DNA from: the human T2T-CHM13v2.0 reference genome, Homo sapiens
Length of the DNA: 64,000 nucleotides
Reading direction: 5' to 3' (one strand)
Assembly: GCF_009914755.1 (NCBI RefSeq)
Contig: NC_060927.1
Shown piece after piece: positions 1,979 through 6,732 of this stretch. A program made the position numbers and the translations under genes. The notes beneath the pieces were generated by a model. The model had not been told where the DNA came from, did not search any database, and saw only the letters and a list, made by a program, of their open reading frames with translations. Position 1 is the stretch's first letter, and the number at the start of each line of letters is the position of its first letter.

Positions 1979-2014
<36 letters not shown>
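1979..2014. repeat. (GT)18 microsatellite
   Basis: read directly. Confidence 0.95.
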
Positions 2015-2017
<3 letters not shown>

Positions 2018-2503
2018 GTGGGACAGAGTAAGAGAGTAACTATATTTGTGTTATTGAAAACTGAGACTTGAATGTGAGTGAAAGGAGATACAGTTGTAAG
2101 ATGCATGACGTTTAGTGACAATTCTTTAGTCTTGAAATTAAATCAGAATTATCAATATAAAGTCATGATATATGTGATCATGAAAATAAATATATGCCTA
2201 TTTCCAAGTCTGACCACTGAAAAGATCTAGAAGCAATGGCCAACTTAGCGACAATGAACATTTTTAGCCTCAGATTTGGGTCTCTAACAACCATCTTTCA
2301 CTAAAAGAATGGGGGGCTCCTTGTAGAAATGGCTGAATCCAGGTTCGAGGATAGGAAATATACAAGACGAGTCTGAAACACCTTGTCATACCAGAAAGCA
2401 AGGACGCTATGAAAAACTACTACAGTCATGTCAGAAGACTTAGGAGTCAATTCAAAGAAGCTCCCACTAACCAAAGATGGTTGGGAATCAATAAGAATAT
2501 TAT

Positions 2504-2612
2504 CAGGGCTTCCAGTAAGGTGAACAAGAAGACATCCATGTGCTGGGAGGGTGGCTACCCCAACTCCATGGGGACAGAACTCCTGTGCTCAGGACTCTTC
2601 TACACCTCATGC
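2504..2612 (+). mobile_element. MER21-like LTR fragment at the 5' end of the AFF4 retrocopy
   Basis: catccatgtgctgggagggtggctaccccaactccatggggacagaactcctgtgctcagga resembles recalled MER21 consensus. Confidence 0.65.
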
Positions 2613-3871
2613 TGTGGAATCTAAAGCAACAGCAAAGCTGAGGTCCAACTGCCATAAGGATGGACACCAAGGAGGCTGCACTGGGGAGAAAAAGAAGTCA
2701 AGATAAGCAACATGAACCATAAAGCCCGGACCGTGGCGGGTATGAAAGAACAAGAAAGGCGGGATCAGGAAATTCAACAGGACGAAGTTGCCTTCCCACC
2801 TAGCTCTCTTCTCTTTGCTGAGCCATACAAAACTACTAGCAAGGAAGATAAGTTATCGAGTTGTATCCAGAGTAGGCTTGGAAACTATGGTGAAATGAAA
2901 GATTTTATAGGAGACAAATCTATACCAAGGCTTATTGCAGTTTCCAAGCCTACGGTACCACCTATAACAGATGAAAATGGACCCCAGTAGGACCTCTGCA
3001 CCCAGCATTTCTGTCCCAGAAACAGTCCTCAGGCTTACAGAGTGGACATAGTAGCCAGTAGACCGGTGCAGGTGGCAGCAGTGGCACTAACAGTCGTGGC
3101 CAGAGACATGACTGTGACTCACATAGCAGTAGTGGGAGCAGAAGACCAGAGAAAAATGTCAGCATGGATCACAGCACTCCAAGCTGCGCTCTTCCAGCCC
3201 TGGGAAACCCCAGGCTGTCTCTTCGTTAAGCTCCAGTCATTCCAGCTCTCATGGGAATGATCAGCATAGCAAGGAATATCAGCGCTCCAAATCACCTGGG
3301 GACCCTAATGCAAACGGGGATTCTCCCTCTCACGTATCTTTTCCAAGTGGGCAGCACTCAAATCAGTCTTTCCCACCTTCGTTGATGTCAAAGTTCAGTT
3401 CAATGTTACAGAAACCTATTGCCTGTGTGCAGCCCGTGGGCGGACAGGAGTCCGTGGGCGGACAGGAGTCTGTGGAACCAGAGCTGTCCTCTGAGCGCTA
3501 CAGTAGCCAATCCCATGGTGACAGCACAAATGAGCTGCAGCCCAGCAGCAAAGCACATCTCGCCAGGCTGAAAATACCTTTCTAACCGCTGGACCTAAGT
3601 CACACATTCAGAGCTTTTAATATTGTGACTATGTGAAGCAATTGAACATGAAATTCTGATTGAACTTGAACTGCCTTTTTGCCTTAATAGTAAAGAATGT
3701 AAAAGTTTAGAGATGTTTTAAAGTTTAAAGAAAGACTTGTGAGCCACTTCCAAGTGAATCCATAGAGACCTGTTAGCTCCCCTCTTGGGAAATAGACAAA
3801 ATGTCATTTACAGTTTTGAAATATTAAAGTAAGTCAGTTATAGAATAAAAGCATGATCCATCAAGTTTTAA
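2504..3871 (+). pseudogene. Processed pseudogene (retrocopy) of the 5' part of AFF4, approx. codons 1-306
   Basis: ORF 2712..2990 ([29 protein letters not shown]) and ORF 3382..3585 ([16 protein letters not shown]) match the recalled AFF4 N-terminus with no intron; frameshifts and stops; AATAAA at 3844; flanking direct repeat AAGAATATTAT at 2493-2503 and 3872-3882. Confidence 0.93.
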
Positions 3872-6732
3872 AAGAATATTATTAAGAACATTAACTGCAA
3901 TAGATTGAAATCCATCAAATATGTCAGTATAACACCGAAAAAAAAAAAAAAACTAATTAATCACCTTTGGAGCCCACTGAGGAACCAACTCATTTTTAAA
4001 ACTGGTAAATAATGAGAGAAAATAAAGCATTTTCCTGCCTTTCTTATAAGACCTATAGGTATATCCAGTAAGAAAAATAAATAAAGAGAGGAATTATCTT
4101 TTTATAGATGTATTCCAGCTAATAAAGAAAAATAATAGAATTATTAATTTTATTTATATCTATAATAAAACAATGGCTCTAGGCAATAACAATAATCAAA
4201 TGGCTATGACCTTCACAAAATGCGACCAGCAGCCGTTCTGCATCTCCTGGTGGAGTACACATCACCACCTATGAAGTAGTCTTGCAAACAAACAAAAAAC
4301 CTGAATATGATTAAGCCTCAAGATAAAACTACTAATTTACAGAAAAGAAGGGGGTCAGATGAACGGGTTAATTCTATAGTAAGCTCTACTGTGTCTGGAA
4401 ATTTAGTTTTAATAAAGGCAGCACTTGAAGCCAATAGAGGGAAGGGTGGACTTTTTAATAAGTGATATTTAGACACTAGACAGTCATAAGGAAAATAATA
4501 AAAGTATTATTATAGAGATGAAACCAGCAAAATCCAAACTCTGGGAAACTATAAGACAAAAGACCCAATTTTTTAACAAATAAAAATTGCAAGGGAAAGA
4601 AGCAAGATGGTAAGAGAAATCTATACAGTAAAAGAGACTAAATTAACATATCAGCCCATCAAAATGGGCTTTATTTGGATCACTATCCAAACAATTAAAA
4701 AATATATTAGACACGAGAAAAGATAAACACTATTTGATAATTGAGAAAGTATTACGAAAGTATTATTAATTTTTAGACGTGATCATGGTTGTGAAGTCAT
4801 GTGTTCTTTTTAAAGCATTCTTATAATTTGCCAGTACAGGCTGAAATATTTGAAGAAGAAATAATATGATGTCTGGGATTTGTTGAAAATAATCTCAGGC
4901 AGAGTGGCAAGACGTGTGGGCACAAGTAAAACAAAATAGGCCACGTGCTTATAATCAAGGAAGCTGGGTGATGCATATATGGGGGTCCACTATAACAGAT
5001 TTCTTGTGACTGACATTTGAAATTTTTGTAAAAATGCAGCTAGAAGACCTACCTCATCGGGTTGGTGCAGGAATGTAAATGAAATGATGTGTGTAAATCG
5101 CCTGGCACATAATCAATGCTTTAAGTTTGTGGAATTGAATAAACTTGAAGACATACATTAAGTGAGCAGTAACACAAACAGCTGCTTACATGAGCGCGTT
5201 GATCAACCGACATACGCTGTGGGAGTTTCCAGAAAGAGCAGGGTATTGATTAGTTCTCAGCAAGGGTGCCCCAGGAAGTGGGGACTGAATGTGGGTCCCA
5301 AGGAAGATGCCAGAAGATGGCCCTTCAGAGCGGGGCCCCGCGTGGACCAAGGTGGGAGCCGGGCATGGCGTCCTCAGGGCAGTCTGGGTGCCGGGCAGGC
5401 CTCCTACCAAGCGCCAGCTCTGCCGGGGCCACTGCTCTGTCTCCCTCCCTCTCCACTTCCAGAGCCTGGCACAGGGAGGCATACCTCGACACACAGCGGG
5501 TGTTCAAGAAACGGCCGGTGGTGAAAGGTGAATGTGGAACCAGACAGGCTCCAGGTTTCAATTCAGAACTCCAGCTCAGGGGTTCTCTGAAATTCCAGAC
5601 CAGCAGTGAGACAGGAAGCGGCTGCAATGTCTGACACAGAGAAACAACGCAGCAGAATCCTCTGCCGCTGTGAGAAGAGAACCAGGATGCTGGTTAGATA
5701 CTGACGTGGAGCTGGCGCCAGAATGTATCTGAGTAACCACGTCTGTGCTCTGCTACTATTTCTGTTTCTTAGAAAGTGGAGGGCAGACCCTCTCTGGAAG
5801 CACACATAGGGGCTGCGGACAGTGGAGGCTTCTGGTGAGAGGGCTGGGGCTGGAGACAGGGCAGGAGCAGGCTTACTTTGGGGTATATACTCTTTGACAC
5901 TGTTTGGAGGTTTTACCTTAAATAAAATATGCAGTAATAAATAAAAGTCCTGTCAGTGGCTTTTGGGGTGGGGGAAGCAGTAATTCCTATCAGGTCTTGG
6001 GGCAGGGGAAGCCTTCAGAACTCCACGGAAGCAAGAGAACCTTTCTACTGACGTGTCCCGGTGGGAGAGAAGACCCATCTCCACAGCTCCTCTCAAAACA
6101 AACCCAGCCAAATTAAACAAGCGTACAGAAGAGCAATAGGAAAGATGTTCTAAAGGGCTACACTCTCCAGAAGAGCTAAATTAAAACTAATCCAGGCAGC
6201 TGGCACAAGTGCTGAGGACAAATGTGGTGGCTTTTTACGGGGGAATTAGTGAAAGAATGGCTGAACCAAGCAGAATGTTACTCAGGGTCCCCAGCGCTCT
6301 CCCAGAGGGTTTATGCTGATCCACCGAATTTGAGGACTCAATTTAGGCAAATAAAACCTAGTTTATTGTCGTCTGGCTGGGGAAAAGCACATAAAGACTC
6401 ATTTATCTGGTTGTAAACGAGCTAGTAGAGCTGGCTGTCACAAGTGCATTATTCAGCAGAAACGAGAAGTGATTTCAGCAGTCCTCAGGAGGGAGTGAAT
6501 GCAGGGCACAGGAGTGGAAATCTCCACCACCAAACTGACCACCACTGGAAAACAACTTGTCCTTTTTAGTTACATGTTTATTGCAGGACCAACGAATAAC
6601 CATCTAAATAAGCGCTAACTAAATAACACTACAGTGTGGAAGTTAGAAAGCCCCCGCATTTCAGCAGGCTCTGGGAAAAATTATGCAGAAGACAAAGTCC
6701 CCTGCTGAATGTAACTGCCCACGCCTGCCTGG

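What the first reader, a model, noticed from the sequence alone, without database searches (positions are those of the whole stretch)
2504..3882. AFF4 retrocopy as a fossil of an LTR-initiated, intronically polyadenylated short isoform
Seen between 11-bp TSDs: a MER21-like fragment (2504-2612), about 95 nt of unassigned sequence, then caacATG and AFF4 coding homology ending at ...ccgctggac|ctaagt (about 3594), then about 270 nt of AT-rich sequence with AATAAA (3844) roughly 20 nt before the end. Recalled: AFF4 exon 2 starts at caacATG and exon 3 ends at ..KIPSQPLD. Inference: ctaagt is a decayed gtaagt donor and the tail is AFF4 intron 3, so the source mRNA ended at an intronic poly(A) site and began with non-canonical LTR-derived exons. 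That implies a germline isoform with the P-TEFb-binding region but without the ELL, ENL/AF9 and C-terminal regions.
Basis: partly seen in the sequence, partly recalled or inferred. Interest (0 to 1): 0.7.

Follow-up and report, generated by a model that had tools for sequence, protein, structure and literature searches.

The report
Fossil of a short AFF4 transcript
This is a dead, reverse-transcribed copy of a short, spliced AFF4 messenger RNA that stops inside intron 3 and likely began in a retroviral promoter since disabled in humans; the protein it would have encoded keeps the P-TEFb-binding end, lacks the other docking sites, and is predicted to act as a brake on transcription elongation.

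Summary
Confirmed in most parts. Window 2503-3871 is a processed AFF4 pseudogene inside an older repeat, bounded by a 10-11 bp target duplication. It maps to chr5 as spliced blocks: a 92-nt exon 454 nt upstream of exon 2, exon 2, exon 3, and an unspliced run into intron 3 ending about 20 nt past an AATAAA that the parent still has, with no A-run for internal priming. The parent frame gives AFF4 1-306 plus 13 intron codons: P-TEFb site kept, ELL site lost. The first 112 nt are an LTR-like repeat that starts about 24 nt after the family's TATA-like box and ends before a GT in 17 of 29 copies, joined exactly at the exon's AG: an LTR first exon. The only such element in 130 kb of AFF4 lies in sense 4.6 kb upstream, with an Alu at its TATA position and no upstream promoter part. 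It is no closer to the leader (22-37% mismatch) than random copies, so the source is likely, not shown. Present-day expression and function are untested. Known kind (retrocopy as isoform fossil; AFF1 intron-3 termination is published); this AFF4 case was not found in my searches.

The parts
2493..2503 (+). 5' copy of the target-site duplication (10 bp AAGAATATTA; the 11th base, T2503, may belong to the insert)
2503..2615 (+). LTR-like first exon (MER21-type, name recalled); starts about 24 nt after the family TATA-like box, ends before a family GT
2616..2707 (+). copy of a 92-nt non-coding AFF4 exon (C5:133457491-133457400), with an out-of-frame upstream ATG at 2660
2708..2834 (+). copy of AFF4 exon 2, start codon at 2712
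2835..3594 (+). copy of AFF4 exon 3, disabled: 55-nt deletion near 2975, first stop 2988-2990, small frameshifts, 18-nt duplication 3434-3475
3595..3869 (+). unspliced start of AFF4 intron 3; decayed donor at 3595; 13 read-through codons and stop 3634-3636, as in the parent
3844..3849 (+). AATAAA, conserved in the parent at intron 3 position +257 (C5:133453641)
3870..3893 (+). two residual A's, then two tandem copies of the target 10-mer (3872-3881, 3884-3893)
2200..2502 (.). left half of the older high-copy repeat (L1M-type 3' end, name recalled) that received the insertion; it resumes at about 3884-3932

Best explanation
The stretch is a disabled processed copy of a spliced AFF4 RNA made of an LTR-like first exon, a 92-nt non-coding exon, exons 2 and 3 and the first 280 or so bases of intron 3, likely started at the sense LTR in AFF4 intron 1, likely cut and polyadenylated at the intron-3 AATAAA, and likely inserted by LINE-1 machinery in an early primate germ line or embryo. 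SHOWN: block structure, exact splice junctions, conserved AATAAA, target duplication, loss of the frame. INFERRED: (a) transcription began about 24 nt after the LTR's TATA-like box, so the copy is full length; (b) the LTR donor was spliced to the 92-nt exon; (c) the source was the copy at C5:133462215-133461770; (d) a younger Alu later came to sit at the TATA position and the upstream promoter part was lost, so this start is probably extinct in humans while the intronic poly(A) signal survives; (e) the RNA would encode AFF4 1-306 plus 13 residues, which would bind cyclin T1 without ELL2 or ENL/AF9 and so compete with full-length AFF1/AFF4.
For: Three introns removed to the base with AG/GT in the parent, exon 1 (donor at C5:133483007) and all later exons absent. 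Homology ends about 20 nt after AATAAA; parent has 4-6 A's per 20 nt there, a T-rich stretch downstream and two TGTA upstream. GT follows the leader end in 17 of 29 copies, GC in 5. A CATAAAA-like box (at most 1 mismatch) lies within 110 nt upstream in 19 of 28 copies, in two spacing classes (39-41 nt in 5 copies, 66-69 nt in 8); the leader and the AFF4 copy have the short layout, which puts the retrocopy's first base about 24 nt after the box. One such element in 130 kb, in sense, 4.6 kb upstream of the 92-nt exon, with a GT at the matching place; by hand arithmetic on 1,921 + 5,501 copies a sense copy falls in this 25.5-kb intron by chance about 3% of the time. Alu poly(A) abuts the TATA position, no target duplication seen, no upstream remnant after masking Alus, while the same probes find each other. 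Retrocopy 0-fold divergence 11.7% against 12-15% two-lineage divergence for that Alu. AFF4 2-73 suffices for P-TEFb; ELL2 site is 301-351 with first helix 315-324; AFF4 1-300 behaves like full length at cyclin T1 and AFF1 1-308 is dominant-negative.
Against: The AFF4 intron-1 copy is a poor match: 72.5% over 80 nt, 65 of 103 columns in the multiple alignment against 75-85% for the 28 other copies, and it shares 1 of 10 leader-rare bases. Pairwise mismatch is 22-26%; P is 0.0007-0.02 if 14% is expected (the intron tail) and 0.2-0.55 if 22% is expected. In the tree it has a long branch (0.42) and is sister to the leader in 0% of 200 bootstrap trees; the AU test does not reject sisterhood (p 0.35). 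The other copies were picked for likeness to the leader, which biases the comparison. The box sits 24-26 nt upstream, a little closer than the usual 28-31 (own knowledge). DNA beyond C5:133517000 was not read. AFF4 is absent from the searched supplements of two oocyte LTR-transcript papers and two intronic-poly(A) papers. An out-of-frame ATG in the 92-nt exon overlaps the main start and may damp translation.
Confidence: 0.7

Rival explanations
1. Same LTR-initiated, cis-spliced RNA, but from another copy of the family: one since deleted from AFF4 intron 1, or one further upstream with read-through into AFF4.
For: The resident copy is no closer to the leader than random family members are to each other (24.7% downstream); long branch, not sister.
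Against: Needs a second sense copy of the same short layout to sit in the intron by chance (about 3%, hand arithmetic); no better match among the 40 scored of about 200 candidates, though the rest were not scored.
Confidence: 0.12
2. The leader came from a separate LTR RNA, joined by trans-splicing, RNA ligation or a template switch during reverse transcription.
For: The LTR hexamer after the junction (GTATCT in many copies, GAATCT in L009) resembles the first bases of the AFF4 exon (GGAATCT), so microhomology exists. Trans-splicing of prematurely ended transcripts is reported for MLL::AFF1.
Against: The junction falls exactly at both a family GT and the AFF4 AG; a template switch has no reason to. 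A sense copy lies 4.6 kb upstream.
Confidence: 0.08
3. The LTR piece was an internal exon of an RNA begun at the normal CpG-island promoter, and the copy is 5'-truncated.
For: An AG lies at the leader's 5' end in the AFF4 copy and could act as an acceptor; 5' truncation is common in retrocopies (own knowledge).
Against: The retrocopy keeps the bases before that AG and shows no exon 1 sequence; its end coincides with the expected start of LTR transcription although family homology runs 180-560 nt further upstream.
Confidence: 0.07
4. The 3' end came from priming on an A-rich patch of partly spliced pre-mRNA, not from polyadenylation.
For: Hardly any poly(A) tail remains; A-rich 10-mers occur at intron +125, +257 and +332.
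Against: None lies at the end point (about +278); AATAAA sits 20 nt upstream, T-rich sequence downstream.
Confidence: 0.03
5. On function only (compatible with the best explanation): the RNA was a minor, unregulated by-product that happened to be copied once, with no protein of consequence.
For: Single copy; upstream ATG; no AFF4 row in four supplement searches; the lower divergence of the 92-nt exon (12.0%) and tail (14.3%) against 4-fold sites (18.5%) is not significant (p 0.26, 0.30).
Against: Retrocopies come preferentially from abundant germ-line RNAs (own knowledge); the parent keeps the signal, the 13-codon extension and the stop; the paralogue AFF1 ends prematurely in its intron 3, among genes whose such RNAs reach 10-20% of full length.
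Confidence: 0.5

Closest known systems
Processed pseudogenes as fossils of transcript isoforms (Shemesh et al. 2006, PNAS; seen only as a reference line in PMC5470649; content recalled)
   Same: Intron-less copy with target duplication that records splice and end choices of an old mRNA.
   Different: Here both ends are non-canonical, and the inferred promoter looks disabled in the human parent.
AFF1 (AF4) intron-3 prematurely terminated, polyadenylated transcript (PMC10291325, passages)
   Same: Paralogue, intron with the same number, polyadenylated short RNA.
   Different: Reported in present-day cells; AFF4 is not mentioned in that paper's main text (0 hits); no LTR start. Whether the two introns are strictly homologous was not tested.
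MER21 LTR promoters: MER21A at CYP19A1 and HSD17B in placenta (PMC4419796, passages); MER21C at NAIP (PMC1781489, passages); MER21B/C-initiated oocyte transcripts (PMC6102241, supplement rows)
   Same: Sense LTR supplying a non-coding first exon to a host gene.
   Different: No AFF4 case in what I searched; the family name of this element is recalled, not tested; the human element lacks its upstream part.
Engineered AFF1 1-308 and AFF4 1-300 fragments (PMC4499153, passages)
   Same: Nearly the same protein boundaries as the predicted 306+13 product.
   Different: Laboratory constructs; dominant-negative action was stated for the AFF1 fragment, not for the AFF4 one.

Membership tests
L1-made processed pseudogene | Introns of the parent removed precisely | tested here: met
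   Two AFF4 introns and the acceptor side of a third, to the base
L1-made processed pseudogene | Target-site duplication at an endonuclease-like site | tested here: met
   10-11 bp, starts at T/AAGA; extra tandem copy at the 3' side; empty sites carry one copy
L1-made processed pseudogene | 3' poly(A) tail | tested here: inconclusive
   Two A's remain before the duplication
L1-made processed pseudogene | Disabled frame, neutral change | tested here: met
   55-nt deletion, stop after 92 codons, frameshifts; 66 of 563 0-fold sites changed
Intronic polyadenylation isoform (composite last exon) | Exon runs through its donor into the intron | tested here: met
   Contiguous match 2835-3856 to C5:133454692-133453629 across GAT|GTAAGT
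Intronic polyadenylation isoform (composite last exon) | Poly(A) signal 10-30 nt before the end, no genomic A-run | tested here: met
Intronic polyadenylation isoform (composite last exon) | 3'-end reads in present-day cells | tested here: inconclusive
   No AFF4 row in 4 files of PMC5928244 and 3 of 4 files of PMC8559711; no atlas could be queried
LTR-initiated chimeric transcript | 5' end just downstream of the LTR TATA box | tested here: met
   About 24 nt, judged from family copies, not from the source itself
LTR-initiated chimeric transcript | LTR splice donor joined to a host acceptor | tested here: met
   GT in 17 of 29 copies; AG in the parent
LTR-initiated chimeric transcript | Source LTR in cis, sense, and closest relative of the exon | tested here: inconclusive
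   In cis and sense, yes; closest relative, no; AU p 0.35
LTR-initiated chimeric transcript | Capped 5' ends or spliced reads in tissue | not testable with these tools
   No expression data; AFF4 absent from searched supplements
MER21 (ERVL LTR) | Match to the Dfam/Repbase model | not testable with these tools
   Name recalled; shown only to be high-copy (202 and 1446 candidates) with a TATA-like box; no Rfam match

The most novel reading that the evidence does not exclude
AFF4 has a natural, regulated short isoform (1-306 plus 13 residues) that sequesters P-TEFb from super elongation complexes in germ cells or early embryos; early primates drove it from an LTR that an Alu later knocked out, the intron-3 poly(A) switch is still used and is shared with AFF1, and this retrocopy is the only surviving record of the lost promoter.
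Probability: 0.25. Interest if true: 0.78.

Novelty: new member of a known kind. Interest (0 to 1): 0.55.

Why it matters
It gives exact coordinates for an AFF4 intronic poly(A) site, an extra 5' exon and a probably extinct LTR start, and it predicts a natural counterpart of fragments that laboratories use to block the super elongation complex. That is directly testable in 3'-end, long-read and proteomic data and bears on pause release, spermatogenesis, leukaemia and HIV transcription. It is also a clean example of a retrocopy dating the birth and loss of a promoter. If the RNA was noise, it is a tidy but ordinary pseudogene.

Tried and rejected
Canonical exon 1 as leader: rejected, no match. 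Independent LTR insertion into the retrocopy: rejected, the piece is an internal 112 nt without its own duplication and ends at the AFF4 acceptor. Further AFF4 retrocopies: none, 3 of 3 candidates were self or parent. Structured RNA: 0 Rfam matches in 2000-4500. Upstream LTR remnant elsewhere in the 130 kb: none after Alu masking, the remaining hits lay at Alu remnants or A-runs by my reading. Selection on the extra exon or tail: trend only. Tree test of the source: inconclusive. Literature: ten searches; listings only, except the passages cited; none showed an AFF4 pseudogene, an AFF4 intron-3 isoform or an LTR start, but subscription papers and annotation databases (GENCODE, PolyASite, RetrogeneDB) were not searchable, and I recall that GENCODE lists short non-coding AFF4 models, unchecked. 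Kowarz 2011, Shemesh 2006, Lee 2018 and Scholz 2015 were not held. One supplement file each of PMC8559711 and PMC5538554 was not searched and may list AFF4. The region upstream of C5:133517000 and other primate genomes were not read.

Full report
Observation. The sequence is as described. The peptide from ATG 2712 is AFF4 2-75 (Pfam AF-4). A genome search with 2493-3882 gave, besides self and a high-copy repeat, three collinear minus-strand blocks on contig 5: 2616-2707 to 133457491-133457400 (88%), 2706-2831 to 133456946-133456821 (87%) and 2835-3856 to 133454692-133453629 (79% with gaps). The tail alone has only that parent match. The coding part finds no other copy (3 of 3 candidates self or parent).

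Splicing. In the parent the 92-nt block has a pyrimidine-rich AG before it and AAG|GTAGAT after; exon 2 has AG and GTT|GTAAGT; exon 3 has AG and GAT|GTAAGT. The retrocopy joins these to the base, and runs through the exon 3 donor. The usual first exon (CpG island near 133483000, donor 133483007, 26 kb up) is not in the copy.

3' end. The parent has AATAAA at intron position +257, the first of five such hexamers in 2.5 kb. Homology fades about 20 nt later. There are 4-6 A's per 20 nt at that point, T-rich sequence after it and TGTA at +110 and +135. This fits cleavage and polyadenylation, not internal priming. The parent frame reads AFF4 1-306, then 13 intron codons and a stop; the retrocopy keeps the same 13-codon run and stop. 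Residues 2-73 suffice to bind P-TEFb (PMC3589825, passages); the ELL2 site is 301-351 with its first helix at 315-324 (PMC5290273, passages), encoded further down (one search places that motif 6.9 kb past exon 3). The ENL/AF9 site and C-terminal domain lie later still (recalled). The stretch I recall as the SIAH degron and CHOPS hot spot is retained.

Insertion site. The left flank is a high-copy repeat (236 candidates, 40 scored). Five empty sites that I fetched (four, one) run on from the left flank into the sequence at about 3884 with one copy of the target; the window has one copy at the left and two at the right. So the duplication is real, with a small extra repeat at the 3' junction, and poly(A) is nearly gone.

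The leader. 2503-2615 is a repeat: 202 candidates, 40 scored, 38 distinct repeat places listed, of which I fetched and used 28 (L024 duplicates L010 and was dropped). Directly after the leader's last base, 17 of 29 copies (28 plus the AFF4 copy) have GT and 5 have GC, and the AFF4 side of the junction is exactly the AG. Upstream, 19 of 28 copies have a CATAAAA-like box within 110 nt (background 0.003 per position), at 39-41 nt from the anchor in 5 copies and 66-69 nt in 8, the difference being one extra unit of about 26 nt. The leader begins like the short layout, so its first base is about 24 nt after the box, while family homology extends 180-560 nt further up. I read this as a full-length copy of an RNA begun in the LTR and spliced from a weak LTR donor. 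This is inferred from relatives, not from the source.

Which LTR? In 130 kb of the AFF4 locus only one element matches: 133462215 to about 133461770, sense, 4.6 kb above the 92-nt exon, short layout, GT at the matching place. An Alu tail abuts it where the TATA-like box would be; I saw no target duplication, and no upstream LTR remnant was found after masking Alus. That Alu differs 12-15% from its best matches in the locus (two lineages), against 11.7% at 0-fold sites for the retrocopy (mostly one lineage), so it is likely younger (its AluSp label is recalled). Against this source: 72.5% over 80 nt; 65 of 103 columns in the alignment, against 75-85% for other copies; 1 of 10 leader-rare bases shared; 22-26% mismatch pairwise, the same as between family members downstream (24.7%; AFF4 copy 25.3%; 20 of 28 copies alignable). 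The expected value for a true source is uncertain: 14% from the intron tail, 18.5% from 4-fold sites, about 22% if both lineages were fully neutral; P ranges from 0.0007 to 0.55. The tree does not join them (0% of 200 bootstrap trees) and the AU test does not reject joining them (p 0.35). Place, strand and layout favour it: by hand arithmetic on the MER21A and MER21C counts in PMC4419796 (MER21B not shown) chance is about 3% for the intron and under 1% for the nearest 5 kb. I put the resident copy as source at about 0.75.

Age and state. Divergence: 0-fold 66 of 563, 4-fold 24 of 130, extra exon 11 of 92, tail 36 of 252. On recalled primate rates this is roughly 50-80 million years. The copy is dead: 55-nt deletion, stop after 92 codons, frameshifts, an 18-nt duplication. 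It must have arisen in germ line or early embryo (established for inherited retrocopies); the cell type is unknown.

Function, inferred. AFF4 1-300 behaves like full length at cyclin T1 and accumulates more; AFF1 1-308 blocks SEC-dependent HSP70 induction (PMC4499153, passages). A 319-residue product would plausibly do the same. Against a real role: an out-of-frame ATG in the extra exon overlaps the start, the signs of constraint are not significant, and AFF4 is absent from the supplements searched: PMC5928244 (4 files), PMC8559711 (3 of 4), PMC5538554 (11 of 12), PMC6102241 (7 files). Absence from oocyte LTR lists is also what a disabled promoter predicts.

Known versus new. Retrocopies as isoform fossils (reference line only), MER21 promoters and premature polyadenylation in AFF1 intron 3 (PMC10291325, passages) are all published. 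Ten library searches (listings) showed no AFF4 pseudogene, intron-3 isoform or LTR start; the hub's RefSeq table has no row here; other annotation sets could not be checked. Verdict: new member of a known kind, interest 0.55; observation confirmed, interpretation supported, source LTR and function open.

Noticed in passing
L038:5690-6800 (C5:133462690-133463800): A decayed EEF1A1 retrocopy lies antisense in AFF4 intron 1, about 500 nt upstream of the LTR fragment (PDB match E 1e-89; frameshifts and stops).
   Followed up: partly
window 2503-3871: The retrocopy lies in sense within BFSP2 intron 1 (hub table) and carries an AATAAA, so it could act as a cryptic poly(A) site for BFSP2; untested.
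   Followed up: no
L007-L036, upstream of the match: The LTR family comes in layouts with one, two or (L013) three copies of a unit of about 23-26 nt just after the TATA-like box; L029 has a longer tandem duplication there.
   Followed up: partly
L030, L011, L016: L030 has a long A-run at the TATA-like box, suggesting that this box is a recurrent target or slippage site; L011 and L016 break off near the donor.
   Followed up: no
window 1979-2014 and 3938-3952: (GT)18 microsatellite and an A15 run flank the insertion.
   Followed up: no
PMC5928244 supplement, file 4: An AFF1 intronic poly(A) event near the 5' end of the gene (1.5% of coding region kept) is listed as lower in myeloma than in plasma cells; a different site from the intron-3 one.
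   Followed up: no
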